NCBI GenBank assembly: GCA_009602735.1
Contig: WELA01001870.1
Coordinates: 110,202-174,201, forward strand
Direction: 5' to 3'
From: Mesotaenium endlicherianum
Taxonomy: Eukaryota
Length of the DNA stretch: 64,000 nucleotides
How positions within the stretch are numbered: the stretch's first letter is position 1; each line of letters opens with the position of its first letter. The position numbers and the translations under genes were made by a program. A model generated the notes under the pieces. The model did not search any database and was not told where the DNA came from. It saw only the letters and a list, made by a program, of their open reading frames with translations. Shown piece after piece: positions 23,727 through 61,563 of this stretch.

Positions 23727-23937
23727 TGTCGTGCCTAACAGTGTAGGAGCCCCCTGGCGCGTGCGTTGCGGCACGCAAGGAATCGACCGGGATGATCAAC
23801 CCTCGCACGTGTGTCGGTGGCAGGCTGGCTGAGGGTTGACCCATTCCTGGTCTGCCTGCACTGGCATCGTGCGGTGGCGCATTCCACACTTAGTAGACAT
23901 CTCCAAAAAAGTTATCTTATACTCTATTTTCCTTACA
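23727..23937 (-). repeat. Terminal repeat B2 (211 bp, TGTAAG...CACGACA on the minus strand)
   Basis: Aligns by eye with 25206-25306 plus 29985-30096, and more distantly with the reverse complement of 43460-43761. Confidence 0.85.
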
Positions 23938-25203
23938 AGTAGGACAGAAGCGTCTTACTTCCACACAGGCTTTCGCCCAAGTTGAGGGTTTACAAGATGA
24001 ACAAGTTTGTAGTTTGCAAAAATCGTGTCTAAGCAGCTTAACAGGCAATGCCAGATTCAGAGAAAATCGCCCTTCAACGCTTTCGCTTAACTTTCACAAG
24101 TTACAACTTACAAAACTCTGAAATTGCACATCTATGCTGGCCTGATCTGAGCTCCTCACTCAACACCGCGCCTAAACAGTTCTTCACTGCTTGGCTGGGC
24201 TCACTCTGTTCTTCACTGAGAGCTTTACTTGTTAATACTACTCTTGCTATCAGCAATTCGACAATTGAGACTTCTGATAACTTGGAAACTAACACAGCAC
24301 TCACCATTCTAAGAGGCTTTCGCACGCTTGTGGTGTTCGGTCCGAATCTGTGCTAATCTCCCAACAGATTCTATTCTGCAGCTCTCTACCTTCTACCAGC
24401 GAGATCCCCTCTTGGGAACTCCTGAGGTCTAACCTTTCTATGATACACTTGAGAAAATATCTTCTAGCGTCGGCAGAAGCGTGGCGTCTCGGCTCTTCTG
24501 TGGCCTTGGGAACTCCTTCTTCTTCGCGCTCCTTCTTCTCCTTTTCTTTTGTACCTGTGTCTTCCGCATTCTTGACAACGCAATACGAGCCAGAATGAGG
24601 CAGCTTCAGGCAGGACTCGTGCCTTTTGCAGGCACCACACATTATCCTCTCTCGAGAATGCCAGTGCTTAGTCACAGCGCTCAGCTTGCATGCCGTCCTT
24701 ACTTAGCAGCCTTCAAACAGCTTCGAAGTTGTCACCCAGCATGCATGCATGCCTTGTGATTGTTGCGCGTGACTGCTTAGCCTTTCAGCTGGCAATCATG
24801 CATAGGTGGCTGGCGGCTGGCAGCGTTTGAGATGAACGCTCAACCCGTGCTAAGTCACTTGAGGGTATTGGCCGAGGTGGCACACAACGCCTCTGCAACA
24901 TCCCTGCTATACTTGGCTTAGATAGCCAATTGATCAGCACCTTCTTGGCACTTGTTGGGCTGGCTCATTACTGGTTCCAAGCCCCTAGCCTTTTGGCTGA
25001 CCACTTTGTCCAAATCCCCATCCATCCCTGGGTGTGGGGTTTGACGAGTCGTGACCACTTTGACAGTGACAACAACTTTGACATAACCGCTGACTGAGAT
25101 AATTCAATTCTTTGGTCGGTGAATCAACGCTGACTTTCCGTACCTGGTCGACCGTGACTTGCGTTGCGCGTGTGGCACCGTCCAGTGGTTGGCAGTCGCG
25201 ACA
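23938..25203 (-). repeat. Terminal repeat A2 (~1.27 kb)
   Basis: Direct repeat of 40895-42120, running from agtaggacagaagcgtc to gcagtcgcgaca, with substitutions and small indels. Confidence 0.9.
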
Positions 25204-25306
25204 GCTGTCGTGCCTAACAGTGTAGGACCCCCCTGGCGCGTGCGTTGCGGCACGTGAGAAATCGACCAGCTTGATCGACCCTCGCACGTGTTTCGGTGGC
25301 AGGCTG

Positions 25307-28300
25307 TGAAAGGGGAGAGGGTGCGGGGAGTGCGCCCATGCACACTCACGCACCCTCACCCGCGTGTGGAAGCGTGCACGAGGACCTTTCCTAGTTGCAT
25401 ACACAAGGTGGAGTGGCCTGGTGGTATGCCACCCTTGCAAGAGTTAGAGGGCTACATGAGAGAGGAGTGGAAAAGAACTCACTTTATTAAAAAAAGTCGT
25501 GTACAAGATACGAAGGTTAGACTAGAATAAGCCCCCTCTACTTCCTTGTGCTTCCCATTTATCCTTTAACTCTAAGTGTCCTCTCTAGCAAAGTACCCCC
25601 AGAACCTTCTCCTATGGCTCCTTCCATGTAGGTGACCTTGCCTAGTTGGACAAGCTAGCACACTCACACGCACACAATCACACTCTAGAATATTCTACTA
25701 CACAATCCACTAACTCCTCACGGAGTTTCTAGAAATTCCACGATCACTTTGGCACTCTACGTAATTGTACGTACTTTCTGGAACCCTCATGTTTCAATGT
25801 CCTACTTCCTGGACTCCAACCGAAATTTTCGTCACTGGACCTGTCCTTGTCACTAAATAGAATCTGTGACATTAAAAACTCACTAAAAACTCCCAAAATT
25901 CATAATTTTCTCAATACTTGTCCAAATGACTTGAAATAAAGGCCAAAGTTCTTCTAAAATCACACTCTATGCATATAAAATGCTTTAAAGATCAAACTAC
26001 AATGTGATAACCTTATATCATCCCCCTCCTCAAGATGCGACGTCCTCGGCGCATACTAAGCATAAGCGACGTCATATGAGGAATCGAGCTCACATATACG
26101 CTAGAAAAACACACATACACTTTTATTATACAAGTTGCTGGTCTTCAACAGGCTCCAGGATGATACTCATTACTCCAAATTTGCTCCACTTAGTGAAAGC
26201 TCCATCGCATACATTGGCTCCACACATGGCGTCTCTTAACACAAATGCATACTCTCTTCAACTCCTTCGTCTTGGAATAGGCTAATATCTTCATAAGGGC
26301 TGTAACATAGTCCCTCCATTATCTCCACATACTCCAAAGCTGGATCCAAGGCATAATAGTCCGCCAAATCGCCAAAATACTCATTCTTCGCCCTCTTGGA
26401 CAAGTGGCAACTCCTCGTCGCGCCATGTGGCTTACTCGTGGTGCTCTTATAATTTTGACCAGATTACATCATGAACCTGACTCCACTATGTTCCTGAACC
26501 TTCTGGTACACTTAGCTACCTCTAGCTCTACGCCATGCTCCTTGTAGAGGTATTGCATTCTCTCACTTGTGTGCGTGACTCGTGGTGACCTCTCAAGACG
26601 CCAAGTGGCACCCCCCTGACTTTTTCTGACATTTTTAGCCTGAAAGTTGTGTAATCTACATAATATCTCCCCTCTAAACTCACTGGTATGCTTTGTTTTT
26701 TTTCATTTCAAGCCTAAGACCATGATACCAGATTGCGCCTTGCCTCACACATGTGGCTCGCACGGCAGTCCAGCAGACCGCCATGTGGCACTGTCAGGAC
26801 TTAAATTAATATTTTTATTAAAAAAGTTACTTTTCCTAAATCTCAACCCATAGGACAACCTCTCCACAAAATTTCAGAATCTGAATCTAAGTCTAACACT
26901 CAAACGAGATCGTCACTTTGTGCCTAAAGCTCGTAGGACGCACACGCGCGCAACACGTATCAAGCTCCCGCGCCTACAAATGGCACATGCTTAAACCCCT
27001 GATTCTGAAACTTGACTCTGACTCAGGGCAGGCCTCATACTACGCCTCTCACATCATGTAGGACTTCTAGTGAAAATATTACCCACTCTCTCCTAAGTAG
27101 GCAAAAAGCAGCCAAAATCTGCCAACTTTAAACCTCGCGCTCGCCTACCCGTAAAACCCTCAAACATGGACAGATTTGAGTATCTTCCAAGCACTTGCTC
27201 TCAAACTTCTTTCCACTTCACATCTCTTAGTTACAAATGAACTCATGGGACTGGCTTGACCTTGCTTACAAGCACTATAAACAACTATAACACTCCCTCC
27301 CCTCATCATGAAGGTTAGGTGCTTACCACTCTAGTGTCCAAGTCCAGATTTTAAGCCCTCTCGTGCTTGCTTGTATAGGCGCTGATTCTCCTAGCTTCAT
27401 GTCCAGGTCTTTGTCATATATCTCCATCTTAGGCAGGACATATCAGTCCCATAACACTTGGTCTCCTCCTCATAGGTCCATATCCATAAAGTCGTAGTCT
27501 CCATCAAGCGACGATAATAATCTTCACAAGGCATGAGCGCGTAGTCTCGCTCGTGGTGCACCAAACTCCATCATAGTCTTCTCCTTGGCTAGATGCTCAC
27601 TCCCACATACCTCTGGCTCTTCTTAAAGGTCAGCCTTCACACAAGGCTCCAAGAAACACATCTGGAACGCCTCCATAAGCTCCATAACTTGGGCAAACGC
27701 ACATAGTCTTAGTGCTTGCACCTCATCTTGTGCTCGCACACACTTTGTCTTGCAAGCGGGCTTCTCTTGAGCTCACTTTCCAGGAGCTCCTCCACTTGAG
27801 CAGTTGGGGTCTGCTCTATATATGAGCAAGGGGATCATACACCTCTACTTGCTCCACCGGCGATGCGCGCTCGCCAAGGTTGTTAGGAGGCACGCTTGCT
27901 CCGTGTGATGACCGGGCCAAGGTCACCAAAACAAGCGCTTCTCCTTCACCTTCACCTTCCCGCGTCGCTTCTTTGCTAGCGGGCTGAAGATAGCTACTTG
28001 TGGTCATATCTACCTCCACCTATTTCACTATCCTCACTTGACCATACTCCTCCTCGGTCTTCACTTGACCCGTGCACTAAAGCACTAGAGGATAGGCTAC
28101 TCTCTTTGTGCAACTCCTTCCACATGCTTAGCTTCTTGAGTGCACTCTAGCCTTGGTCACCCCAATGACACTTTTTACTACTAAACCCAGCTTGCCTTGG
28201 TGCTCTACTTTCACATGAAGAGCTTCCATAGATGCACCAAAATCTGCCCCTTAACTATGCCATCACACAACTAATGGCACACACGCTTCAAGTGGGAGGC

Positions 28301-29984
28301 ATCTCTTGCACTAGCCCTCTTGCACCAACTTCATACCTTGCTTCTTCTTCCACACCATAGACTTGTCTTCATCATAGTTCTCAACTCCATATACTCCGTA
28401 GTACTCTCCTCCATAAGAAAAGAGAAATCTGAACTTGAAAGGCTCCATCTCCATCTCTCCTCTTTGAAGAAAAATCTCGAATACTTCTTCTTCTTGCTCC
28501 AAGCCTTCTCCACGATGCTTCTCTTCACTTGAGGCTTCTTCAATCTCCATACAAGGTACCAAGCTCCATCATGGCTGGCCTCAAATCACCAGTGGCTACA
28601 TAGGAGTGATGCAAGGCAACCCAAATCTGGCCACATACTTGGCCAACTTGGTGCAACACCCCAGTGCACCCTCTCTTGAGCTTCTCATGAGCACCTCTTG
28701 AGCTTGCGAATGCTATGCTCGCCAAAGCTCCTCGACTTGCAAGTACACATGCTTGCTAAGTCCCCGGTTGCCTACCCTTAAAATCTGCTCCACCTTCATT
28801 GAAGATCTGAAATAAAGATGGGCACACACTCCTTTCTAGCCACTATCACCTCTATGCTAAGCCCCCTCGTCAAAGAAAGAGCTTAACACTAAAGAGCTTG
28901 CATCTTCAAGGAAGAATCCAGCCGTGTGAACTCCAGATTCTCTTCATGCTCGTATGTCTCCATACTCAAGCAAAGGTTGCTCTATATTACTTATATCACT
29001 ACCATGCTTGGGCAAATCTTCTTATACTATAAAGAAGACGTACAAAAATCTGGTTGCATCCAAGTTAACACTTCTTGGAGCACCTCCCACTTCCCATCTT
29101 CTCCCTCCTTCAAGAAAGTGAGATGCTAGCTTGCATCAACGTCTTCATGGCTTCCCTTAGCAACTTATAAATCATCCTTGCTTCTCCTCTCTACCCTCTC
29201 TACACTCCTACAAGCATCACCAACCAAAGCTCCCTCCTCCAAATGAAGCAACTAGGTAGCTCCGATACCATGTGAAAGGGGAGAGGGTGCGGGGAGTGCG
29301 TCCATGCACACTCACGCACCCTCACCCGCGTGTGGAAGCGTGCACGAGGACCTTTCCTAGTTGCATACACAAGGTGGAGTGGCCTGGTGGTATGCCACCC
29401 TTGCAAGAGTTAGAGGGCTACATGAGAAAGGAGTGGAAAAGAACTTACTTTATTAAGAAAAGTCGTGTACAAGATACGAAGGTTAGACTAGAATAAGCCC
29501 CCTCTACTTCCTTGTGCTTCCCATTTATCCTTTAACTCTAAGTGTCCTCTCTAGCAAGGTACCTCCAGAACCTTCTCCTATGGCTCCTTCCATGTACTTG
29601 ACCTTGCCTAGTTGGACAAGCTAGCACACTCACACGCACACAATCACACTCTAGAATATTCTACTACACAATCCACTAACTCCTCACGGAGTTTCTAGAA
29701 ATTCCACGATCACTTTGGCACTCTACGTAATTGTACGTACTTTCTGGAACCCTCATGTTTCAATGTCCTACTTCCTGGACTCCAACCGAAATTTGTCACT
29801 GGACCTGTCCTTGTCACTAAATAGAATCTGTGACATTAAAAACTCACTAAAAATCCCCAAAATTCATAACTTTCTCAATACTTGTCAAAATGACTTGAAA
29901 TAAAGGCCAAAGTTCTTCTAAAATCACACTCTATGCATATAAAATGCTAGAAAGATCAAACTACAATGTGATAATCTTATACGA
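25307..29984 (-). mobile_element. Non-autonomous (LARD/TRIM-like) LTR retrotransposon nested in repeat B1; LTRs 25307-26020 and 29273-~29984
   Basis: Two near-identical ~710 bp LTRs. PBS TGGTATCGGAGC (tRNA-iMet type) at 29259-29270 on the minus strand. PPT GAGGAGGGGGA at 26021-26031. The 3.2 kb interior has no long ORF. The sequence on either side rejoins to rebuild repeat B. Confidence 0.9.
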
Positions 29985-30096
29985 TGGCTGGGGGTTGACC
30001 CATTCCCGGTCTGCCTGCACTGGCATCGTGCGGTGGCGCATTCCACACTTGGTAGAAATCTCCAAAAAGGTTATCTTATACTCAGTTTCCCTTACA

Positions 30097-30107
30097 CCCC
30101 TCCCTTT
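30097..30107 (-). promoter_or_regulatory. Polypurine tract (AAAGGGAGGGG) directly before the TG start of repeat B1
   Basis: Plus-strand cccctcccttt lies between the integrase stop and the ...cttaca end of B1. Confidence 0.75.
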
Positions 30108-30142
30108 CAGCTGAGGCGTCCTTGCCTTTCTGTTGAAAGCTT

Positions 30143-31681
30143 CTATCTCTTAGCTCTGCGCCTGGGGGTTTTAGGAAGGCAGTCAGGACATTCCCACTGT
30201 CCTGCCATAATCTCTTCTTCACCAATGCAGAAGGTGTGCCAACGAGCACTACACTTATCGCAAGTTACCATTGTTTCTTGATCATCCAGCACTTTGCAGC
30301 TGGCACAGGGCGTGGCTAGCACCAATTTCTCGGGCATAGCCTTAATCGTAGGATCGATATTGGGCAAATGGCACAGCGAGCAGTTCTGCACGTGATCTCT
30401 CATGATCTTACCATCAGAATCTTCCAGTTCCAACACACCATTGTCGAACGCATGTTTCACGCGTAAGATCACTGCACCTGAACTGGTGTCGATGGTGGTC
30501 TTAGTCTGGCGTTTGCGGTAGACGAAGTCTCCTTCCTGGATCTGCGTCATCTGCAGGCGATAGCTTCCATCTCGCGTCCTGGCATACCGCTGTGTGTCTC
30601 TTTTCTGCGCAATTATTAGATTGCCCAGGGCAGCAGGCATCATGCGTTCAAACAACGCCTTGCGGCGTACCATCACCTTTAGCAGTTCGTCAGGGCTGTC
30701 CAGGTCTTTCACCTGTTCAATCTCCTGTTTGATGCTGCTGGGCACAACTGGACTTCTTCCAAACAGAATCTGATAAGGCGAGTAACTCGCCAAAGCAGCT
30801 TGCTTGCTAAATATGTAATCCATAACCAGCCATGGCAGGGCCAGATCCCAATCACGCTTATCATGCTCAAGGCATAATTTGCGCAAAGCAGACTTCATGG
30901 TTTGCACCATCCGTTCTGCTAGACTATCTGCTTGTGGGTGGTCTCTAGACGTAGTGCGATGGTCAATGAAGCATCTGTCCAAGAGTCTCTGAAAAAATCC
31001 TTGAAACTCCGACCCTTGGTCTGTCAGCACTTCTGCAGGAGCTCCATGACGTACAATCACACCGTTGAGGAGCGCTTCCGCGGTCCTCAAACTCTCCTTA
31101 GCAGTTAGAGGCACAACTTCTATCCACTTAGGAAAATGCTCAATCATGACCATAATGTACTTGTTACCTCGCTTGGACAGCGGTAGCTCACCGGCGAGAT
31201 CGCAGCTCCACCGATAGCCTAGGCCCATCATTGGCAAAGATTGCAAGTGTGGATGTTGCTGTGTAAACCCAGCCTTGACGCGATCACAGCTTTGACAAGC
31301 CTTGATCACATCCTCACACTGCTGCTTCATGCCCCTCCACCAGTGAGACAGCTCCAGAAGATTGTACGTCTTTTTGAAACCATAGTGTCTAGTATTCTCG
31401 TGCATTTCTTGCACCAGAGCTCGCCTTTTGGTGGGTTCTGGCACCAAATTCTCCTGACCAGTTTCTTCAATCTTGAAGAGGTTATTGCGTTTCCAGCAAA
31501 ACCGTTTAGCTCGATGGCTCACCTGGTCCTTTTCTTTCATCGATAATCCTTCCATGTGGACTCCCGTCTTGAGCCAATGCATAGTGGCTTGTTCTTTCCA
31601 GATCTCTGGACTGAACAGGGGTAGAGGCTCAGCTTCTCCTGACGCTACCATTCTAGCCATCTCAGCCAGGCAGGCTGCCAA
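30143..31681 (-). CDS. Retrotransposon integrase (HHCC zinc domain + DDE core) with C-terminal PHD finger
   Basis: HENTRHYG...CQSC (HHCC); WSCDLAG, LTDQGSEF and LAERMVQ (D, D, E); CASC...VTCDKCSARWHTFCI...WECPDC (C4HC3). Confidence 0.93.
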   Translation of the reverse strand: MAACLAEMARMVASGEAEPLPLFSPEIWKEQATMHWLKTGVHMEGLSMKEKDQVSHRAKRFCWKRNNLFKIEETGQENLVPEPTKRRALVQEMHENTRHYGFKKTYNLLELSHWWRGMKQQCEDVIKACQSCDRVKAGFTQQHPHLQSLPMMGLGYRWSCDLAGELPLSKRGNKYIMVMIEHFPKWIEVVPLTAKESLRTAEALLNGVIVRHGAPAEVLTDQGSEFQGFFQRLLDRCFIDHRTTSRDHPQADSLAERMVQTMKSALRKLCLEHDKRDWDLALPWLVMDYIFSKQAALASYSPYQILFGRSPVVPSSIKQEIEQVKDLDSPDELLKVMVRRKALFERMMPAALGNLIIAQKRDTQRYARTRDGSYRLQMTQIQEGDFVYRKRQTKTTIDTSSGAVILRVKHAFDNGVLELEDSDGKIMRDHVQNCSLCHLPNIDPTIKAMPEKLVLATPCASCKVLDDQETMVTCDKCSARWHTFCIGEEEIMAGQWECPDCLPKTPRRRAKR

Positions 31682-31749
31682 TTCTGATGGGCTGCTCGGA
31701 TCTTCGTCTTCTTAAGCTCCCGTTTTGTCGTCTGCGGATGGGTCTGGGT

Positions 31750-33090
31750 TCGTGCTGAGTCCATCGGCGTCGTTGTTGAGTATACCTACCCAATGTATCA
31801 CTGTCATCTGGTACTCCTGGAGCTTAAGAGCCCAGCGAGCCAATTTACCAGTGAGGTCTCCATTCTTCATCAGCCAGAGTAACGGCGAGTGATTTGTAAT
31901 CAGCGTGAAGGGTCTTCCCCATAGATACTCTCTGAAATGTGCGACAGCCTAAACCACTGCCAGTAGCTCTCCTTCGTAGGACGAGTAATTGCTCTCCGCT
32001 CGGTTGTTAGAGCGCGAGGCATAGGCAACAACATACTCCTCTCTAGGACTTGCGGCCTGAATGAGTACTGCGCTGATTCCGACACGACTCTAGTCAGTGT
32101 GTAGACTGAACGGCTTGGAGTAGTCGAGCGTTCACAAAATTGGGGCCGTTACCAGCCGCTCCTTGAGCTCGTTCATGGCCTTCTCCTGGGCTTCCGCCCA
32201 CACAAAAGGTACGTCCTTTTTCAGGAGTTCTGTCAAGGGTTTAGCAATTTTGCTATAGTCCTTCACAAATTTACGATAATATTCGCTTAGTCCTAACAGG
32301 GCTTTCAGCTTAGACACATTCGCTGGTGCAGGTATCTTGTAAATGGCTTCAGCCTTTAGCCTGAGGGGACATAGCATTGTTGCCAATATCATGTCCTAAG
32401 TAAGGCACATGTGCCTCAAAGAATCTGCACTTTCCAGGGTGCAGCGTCATCTGGAATTTCTCCAGGCGCTGGAACACTTGTTCCAAGTGCTCGAGGTGCT
32501 CTTCTATGGACTTGCTGAATACCACTACGTCATCAATGTATGGTTTTGCCAAATCCAGCCCCTCCAGCACTTTGTCCATAGTCCTCTGAAAAAAAGACTG
32601 GGGCATTTTTCAGCCCAAACGGCATTACCGTCCATTGCCAAAGTTCCCTTTGAGCCCAGAAAGCGGTCTTACCTCGATCCTCTGTTTTCACAGGGATCTG
32701 GTTGAAGCCTTGGCGTAGATCGATGATGCTGAACACCTTCCCAGTGGTAGCAATCGCAAAGATTCGTTCTGGTGTAGGCATCACATAGCTGTCTGGCTCT
32801 GTGTGAAGATTCAAACGTCTGTAGTCTCCACACATACGAGTGGCGGTATAATTGCCAGCCTTGTCCTTCTTGGCAACTACTATTGTGGGAGCTCCACGTA
32901 CTGAGGTTGATTTCTCAATCATACCGAGCTTGTGCAGCTCCTGGCAAGTTTTCTTCACACAGTCCCGTTCTGTCTGACTGAGCTTATGCGGCCCAAGTCT
33001 GACTGGGTTATCAGTAGTTAGTGTGATCTCACATACACTGGCAGTGGTTCTACCAAGCTCCTCCTTGGTAAAAGCAAACACCTTGTGGTG
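31750..33090 (-). pseudogene. Ty3/Gypsy reverse transcriptase and RNase H, disrupted by frameshifts and stops
   Basis: RMCGDYRRLN, IDLRQGFNQIPV, KTAF, VMPFGLKNAP, YIDDVVVFS, LGLSEYYRKFVKDYSKIAKPL and LVTAPIL are split over three frames. RNase H remnants YASRSN...YSSYEGELLAVV and ARWALKLQEY follow. Confidence 0.92.
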
Positions 33091-33099
33091 CTTCTTCAG

Positions 33100-35395
33100 C
33101 AGCCTTTCTACTTGTGCTCTCTGTTAGGTTGAAACCATTTTTCCAATGGTGAAAACCTGAGTTTCCAGCTGCTTTTCCCCAACACAGGCATCCAGTAGTT
33201 GCTACTCTTTGGGTTCAGGTGGGGGTTTTTCGCCCTCATCCTAACCTTCATGCTTTTCTCCCTGATTGTTAGGAGGTGGAGTGGCAGGCTTCTTAGCTTG
33301 CTCCTTCGCTGCTTTAGGCTTGGCGGCCTGCTTCCTAGGCTTTTCACCTTTTTCGATGGATCGTTGACTCTCATGTTGAGTGGGGTATGTCAGACGTCTC
33401 CGGATGGGCTGCCTCAAGAACCTTTCTTCATCTGCAGCAGTCCAGCTGGTCCCTGTTCCTCCCTCTTCACGTGGCGGGGGCGGATTTGGCAACGGCCACC
33501 CTGCTGGATCTGCTCTGGGGTCGATTGTCCAACCCCATTCGCGCTCAATAGTAGTAATGCGCCAACGGTTGTGCGAAACTCCTCCCTGGCTGGTGGCGTA
33601 ACCGTCCATGCTTGTGTCAAAGTCTGCTGTCTTTGAGCCGCAGCTAGTTGTGCGTATACAGCATCTTCTGCTGTCAAGCGGCTTATGGTGCTTCTCAGCT
33701 CTACCAGTTCCCTTTCAGAAACTGCAGATGTCCTAGGGGCTGAACTGTCCTTTTCCCACGTTTCAGCGGCTGAAGGACGCACCATGGGAATGTGAATTCC
33801 CAGTGCCATGGCTTTGCGAATCAAGCCATCCTCTCCTTCTCTTTGCAAAATCTCCAAGATAGGTTGCAGAGGTGGAGCCATGGTTCCTTTTGGAACCCCT
33901 TCTCTTTGAGCTGTTCCTCTATACTTGAGATAACGCATCAGCATCCGCCTGAAAGGTGCATTCCCTTCCCGGGCTACCTTCCTTGTTCTGCTTGCGCGAC
34001 CGCGAGGATTACCTTGTGTTGGTTCCACCTTAGCGGTACAGGCACCACTTTTTGCGACTGTTGTAGCTGATGGGGAATAGATTCTGGTGCTGGAAAACTG
34101 GCAGTTGGGGTGCTGGATGTAGGCGACCTCAGATCGTTGTACAGATCTGATGGACTGGGCCCCTCCATTATCAAGTGGTCGGCCACCCAGTCATCCGTCC
34201 TGAGCTCTTGTAGCTCCAACAAATCCAGCTCTGGGGTAGGAAAACGTGGAATTTCTTCCTGTATCTCCTCTTCATTGGTGATTGGCGGCAGGTCAAACCC
34301 TGGAAAGTCTGGCATTTCTGCGTCATCTTCAACTGACTTCTCCACTCCAGGTGGTGGCGGCTCTTCATCATTATCTGTGTTGAGGTTCGCCAAGTTGACA
34401 ATGGCTGATTGAAGCGTGCTTGCTGCCTTAGCCACTTCCTTTTCCTTGTGTTGTCGAGCGTCTGCTTTTAGCAGCTGCTCAATGATCTGCCTCGTAATGG
34501 ATTCAACTGTTTGACTAGCTAAACCCTGCTGTTGCCCCTTAGCCTGCGGCTCTGGGCTCACCAAAGCAGGTGTTGTAGACAATCTCTTGTCCAACTCCTC
34601 CTGGCGTTCTTTGAATATCACTTCGAGGCATATGGTCTTTGCAGACCCTCCAGAATCTCCTGAATTTTGGCTACTCTCTTCAGCCCATTCACCAATATTG
34701 CACTGGCTTTCTCGCCCTAATGCTTGGTTTAGATAATGTCCAATTTCTTCAGGCGTTGGCTCAAGAGTCTTCTTCTCAGACTCTTCTGACATGTCTTGTA
34801 ACGGCGCTTGCTCTGGTGAAGACGACAGACACTGTTGGTTAGCTTCCCAGCTACTTGAGCTTTCCTGCCAGTAGTCTCCGTGCCCAGCTGCTCTTGGGCT
34901 GAGGTTGGTATCATGCCCTGATCCGGCATCTTCTGGAGTCTCCTCACGTCTTGATGTCGTGGCTCCGGAAGGTGAGCTCCCAAATATCTGGCTGTGAGTG
35001 GCGTTTCTCACAGATGATGGGGTGTCCTGCGTATCGTCTTCTGCAGTTGGCAGCGGCGTTGCCTGCTCAGGCGCCTAGTCCCCCATGGGTGCATCTTCTC
35101 TTTCCAGAGGTGCTTGTGATTCATTGGTCCGGTTATCAATCTGGTCCAACAGATCCTGGCATCTCCTAAATTCAGCCACCCTAGCTTCCCTGAGTACTCT
35201 GTCTCTGGCAGCTTCCGTTGCGTCTCTTTGCGCACCGTATTCTTCTTGTTGCTGGTGTGCCGTCCTGATAGCTCTTTGATCAGATGTTAGCACCACATTG
35301 ACTCCAATTGTCACTGGTCTTGTCCTTGGCATAGGCTTGTCAGTGAAAGTCAGCTGCTGCCATGTCATGATTGTTTCCACCAACCAAGTCATAGA
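33100..35395 (-). pseudogene. Unassigned acidic/Pro-rich pol linker (~750 codons) between the methyltransferase and RT
   Basis: Consecutive minus-strand ORF fragments 35075-35392, 33974-35011, 33414-34028 and 33241-33609; no domain recognised. Confidence 0.55.
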
Positions 35396-35398
35396 GTG

Positions 35399-36340
35399 CT
35401 ACCCAATCATGTTGCCGAAAATATTTGCAGCTTCATCTGACCCTACAGCACCGGCTATATGCCCAACTATGTTGTCGGGTATTCCAAGGCATTTGCCTTT
35501 CTCTACCGCAGTAGGCTCTCTCCAAACGGCGTTTCGTTCATGCATGTCTTTGACCATTTCTGGTCCACCTTCTATGGAGGCTCGGGATCTTGGATATGCT
35601 GTGAAGGTTGGCAGTACCACCCTTGGCTGACCTGGTTCATTGATGACACACTGTGGATAGGAATCCCTCCTGACCACTGGTCTGGTATGCATCGCCAGCG
35701 CCTTTTCCACTGTCAATGTCGTTGGTGATTGCCGTGTAATGTCCTCCATCTCCCTCAGGACCTCAATAGACATGCCATTGGTCCAAAATATCCTGGCCCT
35801 ATGGGATGATCCTCCGTGCTTGGCGTCGTTGATTAGCAACATGATGGCCCAAAGTGGAGTCAAAAATCAGCCATGGTTCTCCCGGCTTCATCTGCTTGTA
35901 ATCCATTCTTAGATGTACATTCTCAATCACAAACACTGGTGGCTAGTAGTGCTGCCGTTCCCGCAGCATGCTAATGATTTTCACCATCCATCCCCAGTGT
36001 TGTGCTCGTGGATCACTGAATCCCCTCCGATTTTCAGCTTGAGAAAACGGTTGACAAGGAAATCCAGCAAAGATCCAGTCAATTATGTAGCCATACAGGT
36101 ACTCAAACTTCACATCGATAATGTTGCCTCCGGCGATGCTCTCGACATTGCTATATGCGGGCGCCAACCCTTTATAATGATGCATTTGCCGCATCTGACT
36201 CATGACTTCTTGGAATGCTAGAAAAGCGTGGTCGTCATTGTCCACATGCAGGACTTTGGCCACCTGTATTCCTCGCTGGATCAATGCTATGGTCCCAGAC
36301 CCAAGTCCGGCGAATAACTCCAACACCACTACTCCCCTCT
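35399..36340 (-). pseudogene. C5 cytosine DNA methyltransferase domain (DNMT3-like) embedded in pol, frameshifted
   Basis: Motif I VLELFAGLG; motif IV IFAGFPCQPFS; motif VI VIENV (~35912-35929, shifted frame); motif VIII DAKHGGSSHRARIFWTN; motif IX REPTAVEKGKCLGIP; motif X IFGN. The motifs are in canonical order. Confidence 0.9.
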
Positions 36341-36379
36341 TGTGAAAAGGATCTTCCATCCTGACAATGCCTTGCGGCA

Positions 36380-38998
36380 GCGGCTCAACTCCAGGCATCA
36401 GATTTGTAGTGGAGGTAACTGGGTAGGGTACTGGCAGCAACTCTTGCGGGCCGCGGTCCCTATTACTCACAGTTGCCAACTGCTTCATGATCTGGGGTTG
36501 CCATACCAAGGGTGTTGGCATGTTGATGTTTGTATAGCCTTCCTCTTCTTGCTTCATGATGTTGTCGGCGGCTTATGGGTATTTGTCGTTAACGCAGCTA
36601 TCTAGCAATCCGTAGTTTGCTTCTCCTGTGCAAACCATCTTCACAGGAATTTCTCCTGCCGGCTGCCGATTTGTTGACTGGTAAGTCACCCTCTCCTTCC
36701 GCAGATCAATGACCATGCCCAAGGGAATCAGTGCTTTTGTTCCCAAGAGAACATCATAGTTCACTGCCTCTGTTACTGTGCACTTCATGAGTAGTGACGC
36801 CTCTTCAGGTTTCTCTAGATTTACTGTAACTTTCACAGGCTTGCGGGTAATCCCACAAGACTTTGAGACTTATCCTGAGGCAATTCTCAGCTGAAAAGGA
36901 CTGAAAGGGGGAAGGGTGCGGGGAGTGCGCCCATACACACTCACGCACCCTCACCCGCGAGTGGAAGCGTGCACGAGGACCTTTCCTAGTTGCATACACA
37001 AGGTGGAGTGGCCTGGTGGTATGCCACCCTTGCAAGAGTTAGAGGGCTACATGAGAGAGGAGTGGAAAAGAAATCACTTTATTAAGAAAAGTCGTGTACA
37101 AGATAAGAAGGTTAGACTAGACTAGACTAGACTAACAAGACCCCCTCTTTTATGCTTCAACTCTAAGTGTCCTCTCTAGCAAAGTACCTCCAGAACCTTC
37201 TCCTATGGCTCCTTCCATGTAGGTGACCTTGCCTAGTTGGACAAGCTAGCACCCTCACACGCACACAATCACCCACTAGAATATTCTACTACACAATCCA
37301 CTAACTCCTCACGGAGTTCTAGAAATTCCACGATCACTTTCGCACTCTACGTAATTGTACGTACTTTCTGGAACCCTCATGTTTCAATGTCCTACTTCCT
37401 GGACTCCAACCGAAATTTTTGTCACTGGACCTGTCCTTGTCACTAAATAGAATCTGTGACATTAAAAACTCACTAAAAACTTCCAAAATTCATAACTTTC
37501 TCAATACTTGTCCAAATGACTTGAAATAAAGGCCAAAGTTCTTCTAAAATTACACTCTATGCATATAAAATACTAGAAAGATACAAACTACACCTTCATA
37601 AACTTACAAGGACTCTCTCTTTCAGGTCCCTTGTCGTCAATCCTAGACCTTTCACAGCTCGTTTTCCAAAATGACTGGCTGTGCGCCGGTATCCAACAGA
37701 ATGTTGGGAGCTGCCCAGTTGTTTAAGATCAATGCACCATCCTTATTTTGCATTCTCACAGTGCTAAAACTGGTGGGCAATGAGGCGCTATTTGCTCCTT
37801 CCTCAACTATGTCCAGCTGATGTCCGGCCTCTTCAACCGTGAATGGGTAAGTGATGTGCAAATCCGCGAGAGGAAGCAAAGGAGCCTGCTGGATCCGGTG
37901 TTCCACCAGAGCCTTCAGCTTCTCCAGTGAAAAAACTGAATGTCTTGCGCGACCCGGGCCTGGTTTGTCGTAGCTGTGAGATCTCGTTTTCATCCAGAGT
38001 TGTCCGAAAAGTCTGAGGAAGCTTCCCAGCATTCCTTGGCACCAGACGGCTCAACTCCAAGCATCAGATTTGTAGTGGAGGTAACTGGGTAAGGTACTGG
38101 CAGCAACTCTTGCGGGCCGCGGTCCCTATTACTCACAATTGCCAACTGCTTCATGATCTGGGGTTGCCATACCAAGGGTGTGGGAATGTTGATGTTTGTA
38201 TAGCCTTCCTCTTCTTGCTTCATGATGTTGTCGGCGGCTTCTGGGTATCTGTCGTTAACGCAGCAGTCTAGCAATCCGTAATTTGCTTCTCCTGTGCAAA
38301 CCATCTTCATAGGAATTTCTCCTGCCGGCTGTCGATCTGTTGACTGGTAAGTCACCCTCTGCTTCCGCAGATCAATGACCATGCCCAAGGGAATCAGTGC
38401 TTTTGTTCCCAAGAAAACATCATAGTTCACTGCCTCTGTTACTGTGCACTCCATGAGTAGTGACGCCTCTTCAGGTTTCCCTGGATTTACTGTGATTTTC
38501 ACAGGCTTGCGAGTAATCCCACAAGACTTTGAGACTTGTCCTGAGGCAGTTCTCAACTGGAAAGGGCTCTCTTTCAGGTCCCTTGCCGTCAATCCCAGAG
38601 CTTTCACAGCTCGTTTTCCCAAAATGACTGGCTGTGCGCCTGTATCCAAAAAAATGTTGGGAGCTGCCCAGTTGTTGAAATTTAATGCACCATCCCTATT
38701 TTGCACTCTCACGGTGCTAAAATTGGTGGGCAATGAGGCGCTATTCGCACCTTCCTCAGTTATATCCAGCTGATGTCCGGCTTCTTCAACCGTGAATGGG
38801 TAAGTGATATGCAAATCAGCGAGAGAAAGCAAAGGAGCATGCTGGATCCGGTGTTCCACCAGGGCCTTCAGCTTCTCCAGCAAAAAACTAAATGTCTTAC
38901 GCGTCCCGGGCCTGGCTTGTCGTAGCTGCGAGATCTCATTTTCATCCAAAGTGATCCGAAAAGTCTAAGGAAGCTTCTCAGCATTCCTTGGCACCAGA
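36380..38998 (-). pseudogene. Tandemly duplicated retroviral-type aspartic protease region; the downstream copy is interrupted by a solo LTR
   Basis: IFLDTGAQPVILG (ORF 37990-38949) and ILLDTGAQPVIL (ORF 37652-38032); YDV(F/L)LG in both copies; duplicated unit of ~950 bp with its junction near 38048. Confidence 0.88.
36902..37608 (-). mobile_element. Solo LTR of the same family as 25307-29984
   Basis: TG...CA ends; aligns with 25307-26020; perfect 5-bp target-site duplication AGGAC at 36897-36901 and 37609-37613. Confidence 0.93.
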
Positions 38999-40800
38999 CG
39001 GTTGTGATTTGCTTGCTCGGCAGCCATTGCGTCCACAGCCTTTTTAGGCATCAGCGTCTCGCCTTTGCAGACGGTCTTTTTTGCAATATCTGCATCATAG
39101 TAGACATTGGGCGCGTTTAGTTTCGCAAACTGAGCTTTCAACTCAGCGATTTTTGCACTCATAGCTTCATACTTCTGGTTACCCTTACGGGGACCAGAGG
39201 CACCCTTTTCTTTCTTTTTTTCCTTGTCTGCCTCTTTTATGGCAGCATTTGCCCAAGGCGATTTTAAGTTTGGGTTCTTAGACCAGCACTCATCTTCTAA
39301 ATGTCCCTTCTTGCTGCGATGTGCACATATCTGTGCCTTGCTAGCAGATAATTGCTTAGCATCTGGGTACGGACAATCCCTCTTTTGATGTCCCGATTTT
39401 CCGCAATTCCAACAGCTCTCTGCGGTTTTAACCGTGTTGGCATGCTTAGCAAACTTATGGAAAAACCCGCTCTTTTTCTTAAACTGAAAATTAGAGCTGT
39501 TGGCCTTAGGCAAAGAGAATTCCTCGCTTCTCTCAGGAGCCATAAGCCGCCTGGAAGCCTCTTCATACCATACTTAACCTTCTTCGATATTTCGGCTATT
39601 TCAGCCGCCTCGTCGATGTCCCAGTCAATCTCGTGCTTGGCGAACAGATGTGGCCTGATTTCACGATCTGTTTCCTTGCCCAAGCACAACAGAAACTTGT
39701 TAGCCACTATTCTGGGCTCGTATATTTTTGCCTTTTTGGCGAGGTCTACCAATCTGGATTTGACCTCCATGACGGTCTTGTTCTTCTGACGAACAAAATA
39801 CACATAACGGTGCACCTTAAGACTGCGATCCTCTTGGAATCGTGCTTCAAGCAACTTAAAGAAACGGCGCAGACAATGCTCGGGGTCTAGTTGGTCATCC
39901 CCAGCCTCCATTCCTTACGACAGCTAGCCAGGGCTTGCGCATGGCTTGCCTCTGCCGTGGCGCTATCGCCTTGCTGACCATGGAGAGGTGCAGCTCTGCG
40001 TGTTACTCGTTCCTGAGCATTGGCAATCTTTTCAGACAGTTCTGCACACACTTTTCGCAACTCTGCGACAGAGCCAGCATCATCGCTCTGAGTAGCAGCC
40101 CTTCGCTGACCCTCAATGAGTTGCCTCATGGCCTCTTGTGTCAGTGCAGCTAAGTCTATGCTCTCAACGGGTGCAGACGTCACTGTTCCTCCTGAAGATA
40201 AAGCAGACATTCGGGCTTTCGCAGCCTCTTTCTGGATTTTTAAATCCCTAGCCCTTTTCTGTTCTTCAAAAGCCCATTCCTGAGTGAGGTCCTCATCCTT
40301 CCGGAATTGGCGATATAACAGCAGGGCATCCTTGTCCAAGTACTGAACCAAGCCTATAAATGCGACAGATTGTGTATAAGAAGAATCCTTTCGAATCTTC
40401 TCAAAGAATTCTGCCCAATAGATCTCATCAAACTCTTCGAAAGTGAGTTTTCGCTGGTTCGTCCGCTAAAACACTTTGCAGACAGCTTGAACTTAGGATT
40501 TTCATCCCGATCATCACCGGCCATTTTGAACGGTGACCAGGACTCACTGACTCTTCCCCACACGTCTTGCTCTCTGCCCAAATCAGGTGCAAAGGCTCGT
40601 GTGTTATCCGGGTTCTCACCGCTTGCGGAGGTATGACGAGACTCGTCTCTCGACGGTTGCTCACTCCACCGGTTGTCAGTATGCTCAGACGTCTCACTTT
40701 CTCGTGGACTCTGGCTAGAATCAGAACCTTCTACAGGCTCCACAGAGTGGTAGAGTCTTCCACTCCTCAACCGCATATACAGTTGAATTTCTCCGGGTCC
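38965..40800 (-). pseudogene. gag with zinc knuckles, disrupted
   Basis: CWNCGKSGHQKRDC (CCHC) plus a degenerate CAHRSKKGHLEDEC; capsid-like and coiled-coil ORF fragments at 39297-39911, 39887-40351 and 40354-40878; MRLRSGR start-like motif. Confidence 0.8.
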
Positions 40801-40894
40801 CTTTCCAGGTTGAACACCAGCAGCCTTCACAGGCCTCAATCCCCAAGTGACTTGGGATTTCTTGTTCACCTGAACCAATCAACAAGTTCTTAGA

Positions 40895-42120
40895 AGTAGG
40901 ACAGAAGCGTCCTACTACCACACAGGCTTTCGCCCAAGTTGAGGATTTACAAGATGAACAAGTTTGTAGTTTGCAGAAATCACGTCTAAGCAGCTTAACA
41001 GGCAATGCCAAATTCAGAGAAAATTGCCCTTCAAGGCTTTTGCTTAACTTCCACAAGTCACAGCTTACAAAATTCTGAAACTGCACATCTATGCTGGCCT
41101 TGCCTGAGCTCTTCACTCAACACCGCGCCTTAACAACTCTTCACTGCTCGGCTGGGCTCACTCAGTTCTTCACTGAGAGCTTTACTTGTTAAGGCTACTC
41201 TTGCTATCAGCAATTCAACAATTGAGACTTCTGAGAACTTGGAAACTAACACAGCACTCACCATTTTGAGTGTCCCTCGCACGCTTGTGGTGTGTGACCC
41301 AAATCTGTGCCAATCTCCTAACAGATTCTATTCTGCAGCTCTCTACTTTCTACCACCGAGATCCTCTCTTGGGAACTCCTGAGATCTAACCTTTCTATGA
41401 TACACTTAGGAAGATGTCTTCCAGCGTCGACAGAAGCGTGGCGCCCCGGCTCTTCTATGGCCTTGGGAACTCCTTCTTCTTCGCGCTCCTTCTGCTTCTT
41501 TAACTTCCTTTGACAACGATGCGAGCAAGAATGAGGCAGCTTCAGGCAGGATTCGTGCCTTTCACAGGCACCACAAATTATCCTCTCTCGAGAATGCCAG
41601 TGCTTAGTCACAGCGCTTAGCTTGCATGCCGTCCTTACCCAGCAGCTCCCACACAGCTTAGAAGTTGTCATTCAACATGCATGCATGCCCTGGGATTGTC
41701 GCGCGTGACCGCTTAGTCTTTCAGTTGGCACCCACGCCTATGTGGCTGGCTGGCAGCGTTCAGAATGAACGCTCAAGCCGTGACTAGTCACCTGGGGATC
41801 TTGGCCGAGGTGGCACACAACTCCTTTGCAACATCCCTGTTGTACTTGGCTTAGATCGCCAATTGATCAGCACCTTTCCGGGCACTTGCTGGTTCCATAC
41901 CCCTAGTCTTTCGGCTGACTACTTTGTTCAAATCCCCATCCATTCCTGGGTGTGGGTTCGACGTGTCGTGACCACTTTGACAGTGATAACGACTTTGACA
42001 TGACCGCTGACTGAGAGAACTCGGTCCTTTGGTCGGCGAGTCAATGCTGACTTCGCGTACCTGAGCGGTCGTGACTTGCGCTGCGCGTGTGGCACCGTCA
42101 AGTGGATAGCAGTCGCGACA
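40895..42120 (-). repeat. Terminal repeat A1 (~1.23 kb), 5' end of the DNMT-bearing element
   Basis: Direct repeat of 23938-25203; begins TGTCGCGACT on the minus strand and runs straight into the gag leader with no B copy. Confidence 0.9.
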
Positions 42121-42224: not shown

Positions 42225-43761
42225 TGTCGCGACTACTATCCGTTTGACGGTGTTGCACGCGCAGGCAAGCTACGGCCACCCAGGTACGGAAAGTCAACGT
42301 TGACTCACCGACCACTTGACTGATTACGTCGCAATCAGCGGTTATGTCGGCGTCGAGACCACTGGCAAGGGGTTAATGTCAATGTGCCCCACACCCAAGA
42401 ATGGGGGAGGTTTTGACAGCATAGACAGCCGCGAGGCTAGAAGCTGGGGATCAGTGATGAGCCGCCCAGCAGGTACCAAGTCAGGTATTGTGTGACTGGC
42501 AGATTAAGCCAGGTCATGGCCGCAATGCCAAGATAGATTACGGCTGCCCGGTTGGGAATCTTGAGCAAGTGGCATTTGCTTGTACACACCGCTCAGGAGT
42601 TCTTAGCCATGAGCCAATTAGGCGTGACTGCCAGCTGAGAAGCTAAGCAGCCACGCGCGGCAGTCACGAGGTGTGCATGCATGCTGAGTGACTACGAGTT
42701 CGAGTTGAGCATGGCTAGGCAGAAGCAACATGCAACTAAGCTTTGTGACTAAGCACGGCATTCTCGGAAGATGACGCTGTGTGGTGCCTGCGAAAGGCAC
42801 GAATCTTGCCTGAGACATGTTATTCACTCACGCATCGTTGTCGAAGGAAGCTAAAGAAGCAGAAGGAGCGCGAAGAAGAAGGAGTTCCCAAGGCCATAGG
42901 AGAGCCAGGGCGCCACGCTTCTGCCGACGCTGGAAGATTTTGCCCTAAAGTGTATCATAGAAAGGTTAGACCTCAGGAGTTCTTAAAAGAGGATCTCACT
43001 GGTAGTAAGTAGAGAGCTGCAGAATAGAATCTGTTAGGGGATTAGCACAGATTTGGGTCAAACGCCACCAGCGTGCGAAGGTCATTTAAAATGGTGAGTG
43101 CTGTGTTAGTTTTCAAGTTCTCAGAAGTCTCCATTGTCGAATTGCTGATAGCAAGAGTAGTATTAACAAGCAAAAGCTCTCAGCGAAGAACTGAGTGAGC
43201 CCAGCCAAGCAGTGAAGAGCTGTTAAGGCGCGGTATTGAGCGAAGAACTCAGACCAGGCCAGCATAGATGTGCAATTCAGAGTTTTGTAAGCTGTGACTT
43301 GTGGAAGTTAAGCGAAAGCCTTGAAAGGCAATTTTCTCTGAACTTGACATTGCCTGTTAAGCTGCTTAGACGTGATTTCTGCAAACTACCAACTTGTTCA
43401 TTTTGTAAACCCTCAACTTGGGCGAAAGCCTGTGTAGAAGTAAGACGCTTCTGTCCTACTGTAAGAAGAACTAAGGCAAAGCAAGTATTTTAAAATTTTC
43501 TTCTAAGTCTTAGGATAAGCAGATGGTGAGAGCTGGGTGAAGGAGAACGATGCCCCGAGTGTTGGTCATGGTTGCATGGTGCAAGTTCAGGAGCCCAGGG
43601 ATGGGTTAACCCTAGTCAGGCTTGTCACCGACACACTTGCGAAGGTTGATCTACCATGTTTGCCCACATGTGAGGAGGGCCACCGACACATTGACCAGGT
43701 CGAAGTCACACTTGCTGGAAGGCTACGCAAGTGCCGAGGGACTGACACTGTTAGGCACACA
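42225..43761 (+). mobile_element. Solo A-B unit of a related subfamily, inverted relative to the main element
   Basis: Starts TGTCGCGACT; 42225-43460 is the reverse complement of A; 43460-43761 is a longer, diverged B ending ACACTGTTAGGCACACA. Confidence 0.8.
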
Positions 43762-57400: not shown

Positions 57401-58459
57401 CGAAGTTGTTATGCTTGCTCGTGACTTGATCCAGTCTGGACTTGGAGCTTTGATTATTGTATGTATTAAACAAGGAACTTATAATGAAACTGACGTTGCA
57501 CAAACGACTACTGACACGCCAACATGCTTGCGAAGGAGATTACCTAGTGTGCGAGAGAGAACAAGCAGTATACCTCTTCATGCCCTGGTTGGGTTTGGTT
57601 GGGTTCAGTTCAGTGAGAAACTTGAAGAATATTGAGGCACGAGAAAGAGAAATTCACTTTCAAATTACAAAGAAAAGATAAAGAAACAAAAATGCTATCT
57701 TAAGAATCTCTAACAGCTAAGTATATAATACCACCAGCCTGTGTTGAGCTCATTACACATGAGGTGCGCAGCACACATGCGTCTGCATGCATGTTGCGAT
57801 GCCAAGGAGCTGCACCTCAAGCTACCTCATGCTGGTATGAGCTATGCATGTGGAAGCACACATGCCAATAAAGTAGAGAAAGTATACCATTATAACAGGA
57901 ATAGGGCCACAGCAGCCACCTGCCAGCAGCGATCGTGATTTGTGCAACTGCTTGCTAATTCTGATTTATTGCCAGGCAGGCTGGCTGCTGTGGCTCTTGA
58001 GTGTGTGGGGGCGTCGGGTGCCACCCCCTTGCGGACACGAGTGTCTTTGACCGGGTCTTCACTAATCGAGCTCACTGGCCGAGCCAACCCAGACCTAGGC
58101 CAATGTATTATATATGAACTTCTAGACAGTTTATCGGTGAAGCCTAGTAAGGCTTATACACGAGTATAAATAGTAGACTTTTATCGGCCACCAAAGACAT
58201 CAAACGTTCTGAAAGTGGTCCACTTATCGCCTCAGCTCTGGAAGGCCAACCAATCAGGCGCAGGCAGGCGTGCAGGCACACAAAATCCTCCGTGTTTTCA
58301 CAGGAAAGAGCCCCACAGCTGCTGCGCACCACGCAGCTAAGTGTGTAATGCGGGCGCCTGCGCAGTGCTGTGCTGCCGGCCAGCCACATGCACTGGGAAT
58401 CTCTTAGGGCTTGGAGAGGGCCAGCTTGGCGAGCGAGGTGTAGTCGTATTGCTCTGCAT

Positions 58460-61092
<2,633 letters not shown>

Positions 61093-61563
61093 NGGGGGGG
61101 GGGTTATTGTACAGGAAGGCTTTTACATGATGCCCTTACAAGCAATCAAATAGGTACAGTAACTGTCCCCAAAAATGGCAGCATTTATCCCGCACAATAG
61201 AATGGCAGAGTATTGCCACCGCCCACCATTTGTGCCCCTTCCTGGCCGTTGTGTTTTGAAGAGAAAAGGCCTCCCTGCCCCAGGCTCGTTCGCCATAGCC
61301 CAGTTTGAGATTACACTTTTTGTGTGGGAAACTATACAGGGCAAAAACAGAGAGGGTTACCTGTAAGAGGTAGTGGCAAAATGGTGCAACCAGGTTCCAC
61401 ACATGCGCGTTCTCATGTAAGTCCAACTCAAAAGCATAGTTGTCAACAATTAGTCTCGCATCATCATGTCAGAGTGAATCGAGGCCACTGCATGTGAGCA
61501 GCCTGTATGAACGACTCCTATAGGGGCATTCCAGGCAGGTAGCCGTGGCCTACGTAGCACGAC

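What the first reader, a model, noticed from the sequence alone, without database searches (positions are those of the whole stretch)
23727..42120. DDE-integrase Ty3/Gypsy element with split direct repeats (A-ORFs-B-A-B) instead of LTRs
Seen: on the minus strand the order is A1 (42120-40895), gag-pol, PPT, B1, GC, A2, B2. The 5' end has no B and I see no tRNA PBS next to A1. The PPT abuts the TG of B1. The outer termini are short inverted repeats (TGTCG...CGACA) with no clear TSD. Known: A1-B1A2B2 split repeats characterise tyrosine-recombinase retrotransposons (PAT, Ngaro, TOC1/kangaroo), whereas DDE-integrase Gypsy elements have two complete LTRs. Inference: the structure equals a 2-LTR circle with LTR = B+A, opened at an internal B|A site. 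That suggests a circle-based or otherwise non-canonical replication and integration route. I know of no described DDE element with this layout.
Basis: partly seen in the sequence, partly recalled or inferred. Interest (0 to 1): 0.9.

Follow-up and report, generated by a model that had tools for sequence, protein, structure and literature searches.

The report
Gypsy retrotransposon with circularly permuted LTR
This is a decayed copy of a green-plant-lineage Gypsy retrotransposon whose relatives all begin and end in the middle of the repeat that reverse transcription is predicted to place at the ends, likely because the integrase cuts a conserved internal palindrome and the original ends are joined to each other; the layout was noted once in an alga but not explained.

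Summary
Observation confirmed: A1–gag/PR/C5-methyltransferase/RT/RH/DDE-integrase/PHD–PPT–B1–GC–A2–B2, with no tyrosine recombinase in 107 frames. It is not a one-off. In related metagenome loci, 25 independent 3' ends are B-A-B, 25 are B only, none is B-A, and none of 16 5' ends has B before A. Ends are TGTC…GACA with an exact 4-bp TSD in 9 of 16 (control 0 of 240). The missing tRNA site is explained by a predicted self-priming pairing just after A1, so reverse transcription should build LTR = B·GC·A. The B|A joint always keeps a 2-nt spacer (24 of 24) inside GACA-GC-TGTC; the A|B joint is length-altered in 12 of 22. Best reading (0.65): integrase cuts the internal palindrome and the cDNA ends are end-joined, as in a 2-LTR circle. 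Unexplained: the mirror form A-B-A-interior-B is absent (0 vs 9). This scan found the same on two other genomes. Copies in this genome could not be surveyed.

The parts
40895..42120 (-). A1, left terminal repeat (1226 nt); begins TGTCG, the left integration end
41227..41241 (-). 15-nt site inside A1 complementary to the sequence just after A1; predicted RNA 5' end / self-primer; present 347 nt from the end of all three A copies
40883..40897 (-). predicted self-priming primer-binding site at the A1|interior joint (14 of 15 Watson-Crick pairs with 41241-41227)
38968..40465 (-). gag region in several broken frames, with a CCHC zinc knuckle (PF00098, E 5e-6) in the 38968-39573 frame
37993..38964 (-). 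aspartic protease frame (PF13975, E 1e-5); the region is tandemly duplicated (38047-39001 vs 36381-36902 + 37615-38049, 91-95%)
36900..37616 (-). solo LTR of the nested element family, inserted in the second protease copy (not part of the host element)
35327..36335 (-). C5 cytosine DNA methyltransferase domain (PF00145, E 1e-11; FAGLG, PCQ and ENV motifs), broken
31622..33147 (-). reverse transcriptase and RNase H, broken by frameshifts and stops; best solved relative Ty3 RT (E 2.5e-19)
30146..31711 (-). open 522-aa frame: H2C2 zinc finger, DDE integrase core (PF00665), C-terminal PHD finger
30097..30108 (-). polypurine tract abutting B1
29985..30096 (-). B1, 5' half (112 nt), begins TGTAAG
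25305..29984 (-). nested conventional LTR element inserted in B1: 714-nt LTRs 97.6% identical, TGG-type primer site and PPT, no Pfam domain found
25206..25306 (-). B1, 3' half (101 nt), ends CACGACA
25200..25209 (.). palindrome GACA-GC-TGTC at the B1|A2 joint; predicted integrase cutting site
23938..25203 (-). A2 (1266 nt)
23727..23937 (-). B2 (211 nt); ends CGACA, the right integration end; A2|B2 is the predicted end-joining scar
42225..43761 (+). diverged solo A-B unit in inverted orientation (about 21% substitutions to A1 and A2), flanks GCTA/GCAA

Best explanation
This is a decayed Ty3/Gypsy-type element (PR-methyltransferase-RT-RH-integrase-PHD) whose family inserts with ends at A and B, likely because reverse transcription builds an ordinary two-LTR DNA with LTR = B·GC·A and the integrase then cuts the palindrome GACA-GC-TGTC inside the left LTR while the original DNA ends are joined to each other. 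Steps: (1) RNA starts inside A1 and primes itself on the site just after A1 (pairing shown in sequence, use inferred). (2) The plus strand starts at the PPT next to B1 (position shown), so the cDNA is predicted to be BA-interior-BA (inferred; never seen inserted). (3) A staggered cut after CA on both strands of CA-GC-TG would give two recessed CA-3' ends with 2-nt 5' overhangs, the product that 3' processing normally makes (geometry follows from established integrase chemistry; the cut is untested). (4) These ends are inserted with a 4-bp duplication (shown in relatives). (5) The A 3' end and B 5' end are joined by host end-joining, either before insertion (2-LTR circle) or after it (inferred from ragged joints; sequence cannot tell which). 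A-interior-B copies would come from one-LTR circles, cuts at both palindromes, or later B-B recombination. Solo A-B would come from A-A recombination or double cuts.
For: Layout is family-wide: 25 B-A-B and 25 B-only independent 3' ends, 0 B-A ends; 0 of 16 5' ends with B upstream. Exact 4-bp TSD in 9 of 16, at least 3/4 in 12 of 16; no exact 3-, 5- or 6-bp match; shuffled pairs 0 and 17 of 240. The self-priming pairing beat every shuffle in 14 of 19 A1 joints, with three different sequence pairs in three families, and lies 30-36 nt below a TATA box in 13 of 19. It is the longest inverted repeat in window 40700-42120 and is kept in the centroid fold. B|A spacer is 2 nt in 24 of 24 (GC 5, AC 9 plus one read by eye, AT 5, GT 3, AA 1). 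A|B is length-altered in 12 of 22, against 0 of 21 at B|A (Fisher p 6e-5) and 0 of 15 at A|primer site. Exact GACAGCTGTC lies downstream of integrase in 9 of 76 loci, against 0.46 expected, including 7 distant ones with 35-42% integrase identity. B2 shares minority bases with its own B1 (113 of 297 vs 62.8 expected) and A2 with its own A1 (133 of 274 vs 52.9), so both pairs are homogenised. No tyrosine recombinase in 107 frames or in the domain lists of 60 long relatives. Precedent: HIV-1 integrase cleaves the 2-LTR junction palindrome (PMC1905944, abstract) and such circles can feed integration (PMC4372172, abstract).
Against: The mirror product A-B-A-interior-B is absent (0 vs 9 complete A-interior-B-A-B; p 0.004 if both sites were cut equally); my explanation, that the left LTR becomes double-stranded first, is untested. 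Ten of 22 A|B joints keep full length, and the same 2-nt loss occurs 5 times, which slippage or inheritance could also give; the integrase tree is star-like and cannot settle this. Five of 19 joints did not beat the shuffles, and the fold z-score of the whole leader is only -1.5. The window copy's own TSD is 2 of 4, and some relatives lack one. The family counts come from relatives at 35-53% integrase identity, mostly one AT-rich family, and not from this genome. In distant loci B2 was not seen; four of those contigs run B-GC-A straight into a long ORF, which collapsed assembly, tandem copies or one-LTR circles would all give.
Confidence: 0.65

Rival explanations
1. PAT/Ngaro-like copying with a swapped enzyme: the RNA would span A1 to B2, the internal B1-GC-A2 joint would template the circle junction, the A|B joint would be inherited, and the integrase would only replace the tyrosine recombinase at that junction.
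For: Same A1-B1-A2-B2 layout as PAT and Ngaro elements (PMC4157794, passages). It gives only A-interior-B-A-B, matching the absence of the mirror form. The 2-nt loss at A|B recurs in 5 copies.
Against: It does not explain why B begins exactly at a PPT and A ends exactly at a self-priming site, or why joints carry private insertions and deletions. RT and integrase both match Ty3 best among solved structures.
Confidence: 0.2
2. Conventional LTR element (LTR = A+B or B+A) whose copies were rearranged after insertion by recombination or deletion.
For: A solo A-B unit with TG…CA ends and a near-TSD looks like an ordinary solo LTR.
Against: No AB-interior-AB or BA-interior-BA copy among 50 independent 3' ends and 16 5' ends; TSDs flank A-start and B-end in both complete forms.
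Confidence: 0.07
3. One-off rearrangement or misassembly at this locus, or A2B2 as an independent insertion.
For: The window copy lacks a clean TSD, and the region is heavily nested and duplicated.
Against: Same anatomy and same GACA-GC-TGTC joint in many independent loci; A1 and A2 are closer to each other (12%) than to the solo copy (21-22%); no duplication flanks A2B2 alone; no gaps; layout published for a methyltransferase-bearing Gypsy.
Confidence: 0.03

Closest known systems
KnitGypsy-Dnmt3 of Klebsormidium nitens (de Mendoza et al. 2018, PMC5890265)
   Same: Gypsy Pol carrying a cytosine methyltransferase; Fig. [quoted passage not shown] 1 legend.
   Different: The text I read gives no termini, TSD, priming site, palindrome or mechanism, and places the element in the K. 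nitens lineage only. Relatives here are named from a liverwort, Closterium and several chlorophytes. Sequence identity to KnitGypsy-Dnmt3 and the window's host were not determined.
PAT, TOC, Kangaroo, Ngaro and VIPER tyrosine-recombinase retrotransposons
   Same: A1-B1-A2-B2 split direct repeats (PMC4157794, passages).
   Different: Here a DDE integrase, protease, PPT, TG…CA ends and 4-bp TSDs; no tyrosine recombinase.
Tf1/Sushi and Tcn1 self-priming Ty3/Gypsy elements
   Same: No tRNA site; self-priming predicted (PMC6317226, passages; Tf1 details recalled).
   Different: Those have two full LTRs and a chromodomain; this element has a PHD finger, a methyltransferase and permuted ends. Its place in the RT tree against these lineages was not tested.
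Retroviral 2-LTR circle cleavage by integrase (HIV-1, foamy virus)
   Same: Integrase cuts an internal palindrome made of two abutted ends (PMC1905944 and PMC4372172, abstracts; PMC1180852, listing only).
   Different: There it is a side route at the ligated LTR-LTR junction and restores a normal provirus. Here the palindrome is encoded inside the LTR, has a 2-nt spacer, and would be the regular route.
IS3/IS911 and IS30 circle-junction transposition (recalled, no call)
   Same: A DDE enzyme acts on two ends abutted across a 2-4-bp spacer.
   Different: Bacterial DNA transposons; the junction is made by the transposase, not carried as a fixed internal site.
Gypsy-7a_cRei of Chlamydomonas reinhardtii (PMC9940879, passages)
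   Same: Gypsy with a PHD finger; the legend mentions 'LTR subparts' and unequal left and right LTRs; very active in laboratory strains.
   Different: Drawn as a two-LTR element; no methyltransferase listed; its sequence was not seen, so kinship is only a lead.

Membership tests
Ty3/Gypsy LTR retrotransposons | domain order PR-RT-RH-IN with DDE integrase | tested here: met
Ty3/Gypsy LTR retrotransposons | RT and integrase most like Ty3 | tested here: met
   best PDB hits are Ty3 RT and Ty3 Gag-Pol; no tree with reference lineages was built
Ty3/Gypsy LTR retrotransposons | two complete LTRs flanking the interior | tested here: not met
   no B before A1 in the window or in 16 relatives; no B-A 3' end among 50
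Ty3/Gypsy LTR retrotransposons | TG…CA ends and 4-6-bp TSD | tested here: met
   relatives exact 4 bp in 9 of 16; window copy only 2 of 4
Ty3/Gypsy LTR retrotransposons | PPT before the 3' repeat and a primer site after the 5' repeat | tested here: met
   PPT; self-priming pairing instead of a tRNA site
PAT/Ngaro (DIRS order) | A1-B1-A2-B2 split direct repeats | tested here: met
PAT/Ngaro (DIRS order) | tyrosine recombinase, no DDE integrase | tested here: not met
   0 of 107 frames of at least 62 aa hit a recombinase family; integrase core present
KnitGypsy-Dnmt3 | cytosine methyltransferase inside Gypsy Pol | tested here: met
   PF00145 between PR and RT; intact relatives P0093 and P0108
KnitGypsy-Dnmt3 | DIRS-like repeat layout | tested here: met
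KnitGypsy-Dnmt3 | methyltransferase of the Dnmt3 clade | tested here: inconclusive
   only weak PDB hits (4onq E 0.0017, M.HhaI E 0.02); one hit at E 8e-4
KnitGypsy-Dnmt3 | sequence identity to the published elements, host K. nitens | not testable with these tools
   no published sequence seen; no genome held

The most novel reading that the evidence does not exclude
A deep green-lineage clade of Ty3/Gypsy elements, from chlorophytes to bryophytes, has moved its integrase attachment site from the cDNA ends to a fixed palindrome inside the LTR. End-joined (2-LTR-circle-type) DNA, usually regarded as a dead end, would then be the regular route to every replication-competent copy, and split direct repeats would have evolved convergently with a DDE integrase.
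Probability: 0.5. Interest if true: 0.85.

Novelty: new variant of a known kind. Interest (0 to 1): 0.62.

Why it matters
It gives a testable mechanism for an oddity left in a figure legend. It also offers a natural case of integration through an internal attachment site, which bears on the old question of whether LTR circles can be integration precursors. Two-LTR finders would miss or mislabel this clade, whose integrase relatives are common (about 2900 matching stretches estimated, 455 confirmed among 598 scanned). It may also hint at how DIRS-type split repeats arose from an ordinary LTR.

Tried and rejected
No whole genome is held and sequencing reads could not be examined, so copies of this exact family were not counted. 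Viral contigs gave nothing useful: no match and one distant hit, L001. No tRNA gene lies in the window, so tRNA complementarity was judged by eye only. The methyltransferase homolog search gave one weak hit. Neighbouring frames gave one host-like domain (PC-Esterase) and no host identification. The integrase DNA tree (47 rows; L039 left out for an insertion, duplicates L006, L022, L057 and L059 left out) is star-like with 6 of 44 branches supported, so it cannot test inheritance of A|B joints. I first read L076's joint as keeping primer-site bases; one search shows a plain 2-nt loss, so I dropped that. The TSD script misplaced ends for L015, L028 and L049; by eye L049 is 3 of 4 and the other two show none, and the script's counts are the ones reported. 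L017 and L037 were left out of the TSD set (an end missing). Inverted-repeat scans in five distant loci show 11-16-nt perfect pairs, but A's end is undefined there, so they are not counted. The Chlamydomonas repeat library was not in the stored supplement, which was cut. The look-alike search by place returned nothing. No structure prediction was run.
Full report
Observation. The layout is in the sequence as described. On the minus strand it runs A1 (42120-40895), interior, PPT (30108-30097), B1, GC, A2 (25203-23938), B2 (23937-23727). B1 is split by a 4.7-kb nested LTR element (29984-25305, LTRs 97.6% identical). A solo LTR of that nested family sits in a duplicated protease region. A1 and A2 differ at 145 of 1226 columns and B1 and B2 at 17 of 213; the difference is not significant (p 0.13). 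The region has no assembly gaps. An inverted solo A-B unit lies at 42225-43761.

Coding content. Pfam finds a zinc knuckle, aspartic protease, C5 DNA methyltransferase, RT, RNase H, H2C2 plus integrase core and a PHD finger, in that order. All but the integrase frame are broken, so this copy is dead. None of 107 frames of at least 62 aa on both strands hits a tyrosine recombinase. RT and integrase match Ty3 best among solved structures. Integrase relatives at 32-56% identity (excluding weak distant hits) are mostly unnamed. Named ones come from Calypogeia, Closterium, Pseudoscourfieldia, Pleodorina, Monoraphidium and Tetrabaena, and intact polyproteins with protease, methyltransferase, RT, RH and integrase exist (P0093, P0108).

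Is it family-wide? The window's genome and reads were not available, so I used 80 metagenome loci encoding related integrases (the best 80 of 455 confirmed). Many carry the same PR-methyltransferase-RT-IN order, and a second group has the methyltransferase between RH and IN. After removing duplicate assemblies, 25 3' ends are B-A-B (one cut by the contig end, one internally deleted), 25 are B followed by flank, and none is B-A followed by flank. The remaining loci are too short, interrupted or too distant to score. None of 16 scored 5' ends has B before A (one has only 158 nt upstream). With both ends in view there are 9 A-interior-B-A-B and 7 A-interior-B copies. Nine of these 16 have an exact 4-bp TSD and 12 have at least 3 of 4, against 0 and 17 of 240 shuffled pairs. 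So A-start and B-end are true integrase ends. The window copy's flanks (TCTT/TCCC) match at 2 of 4 and the solo's at 3 of 4.

Where reverse transcription should put the ends. B starts at a G-rich tract in nearly all scored loci. The sequence just after A1 pairs with a 13-18-nt site inside A in 14 of 19 loci better than every shuffle (20-30 shuffles each). The paired sequences differ among three families, and in 13 loci the site lies 30-36 nt below a TATA box. In the window the pair is 40897-40883 with 41241-41227, the longest inverted repeat in the 1.4 kb scanned, and it is retained in the centroid fold. Self-priming is known for Tf1/Sushi and predicted for Tcn1 (PMC6317226, passages). By standard LTR replication (established knowledge), the cDNA would be B·GC·A-interior-B·GC·A. 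Inserted copies are instead permuted at B|A.

The two joints behave differently. B|A keeps a 2-nt spacer in 24 of 24; the variants AC, GT, AT and AA are what C-to-T decay of GC on either strand would give. The exact palindrome GACAGCTGTC recurs downstream of integrase in 9 of 76 loci, against 0.46 expected, mostly in distant GC-rich elements and with a G-tract visible 50-215 nt upstream. A|B is length-altered in 12 of 22 (losses of 1-2 nt, insertions, one large deletion), against 0 of 21 at B|A and 0 of 15 at the A|primer joint. Both repeat pairs share private bases within an element about twice as often as expected, so B2 is re-made from B1.

Mechanism. A staggered cut after CA in CA-GC-TG yields the same recessed ends as normal 3' processing. 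Integrase cleavage of palindromic 2-LTR junctions has precedent in HIV-1 (PMC1905944 and PMC4372172, abstracts only). I therefore favour internal cutting plus end-joining of the original cDNA ends (0.65). Whether joining precedes insertion (free circle) or follows it cannot be told from sequence. The main difficulty is that cutting the other palindrome should give A-B-A-interior-B, seen 0 times against 9. A possible reason, untested, is that the left LTR becomes double-stranded first. The PAT-like rival (0.2) accounts for that asymmetry but not for the PPT and self-priming boundaries or the ragged joint. Also against: the recurring 2-nt loss, the uninformative tree, and no B2 seen in the distant contigs, four of which run from pol through B-GC-A into another long ORF as collapsed or circular assemblies do.

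What is in print. De Mendoza et al. 2018 (PMC5890265; I read passages, all of section 9, and supplement passages from the peer-review file; figures not seen) state in the Fig. 4c legend that KnitGypsy-Dnmt3 has DIRS-type repeats with Gypsy domains. It is the only paper in the library naming that element. Ten searches listed no paper whose title or abstract explains the layout. Most subscription papers, Repbase and theses are not covered, and unseen supplements may bear on this. The 2026 preprint on adenine methyltransferases (10.64898/2026.05.21.726589, passages) did not mention it in the passages shown. Two earlier notes of this scan on other genomes reach the same reading; I had recorded my reading before seeing them and do not count them as support.

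Verdict. Real, family-wide among relatives, and structurally odd. The layout is already noted once in print, while the priming site, attachment palindrome, TSD and end-joining scar supply a mechanism not found in my searches. New variant of a known kind; interest 0.62.

Noticed in passing
window 25305-29984 (-) and 36900-37616 (-): Non-coding conventional LTR element (714-nt LTRs, TGGTATC primer site, PPT) inserted in B1, with a solo LTR of the same family in the protease duplication; no Pfam hit in its interior.
   Followed up: partly
window 36381-39001: Tandem duplication of about 950 nt covering the protease region, 91-95% identical.
   Followed up: no
window 33150-35330 (-): About 2 kb of low-complexity coding sequence between the methyltransferase and RT with no Pfam match; the intact relative P0093 has only about 55 aa there.
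   Followed up: no
L053, L061, L060, L064, L066, L032, L052: Relatives with the methyltransferase between RNase H and integrase instead of before RT; L053, L061 and L066 have open frames of about 2000 aa and may be young.
   Followed up: partly
L050:6060-6526: Solo A-B unit in inverted orientation about 300 nt from an A-interior-B-type 3' end, echoing the inverted solo 105 nt from A1 in the window; could be chance.
   Followed up: no
window 40895-40915 (-): Small hairpin at the very end of A, directly before the self-priming site, seen in both MFE and centroid folds.
   Followed up: no
window 19888-20928 (-): Frame with a PC-Esterase domain (PF13839, E 3e-22), a plant-type host gene.
   Followed up: no
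window about 58300-61100: About 2 kb or more of pure C (GC 1.0, skew -1.0), probably an assembly or masking artefact.
   Followed up: no
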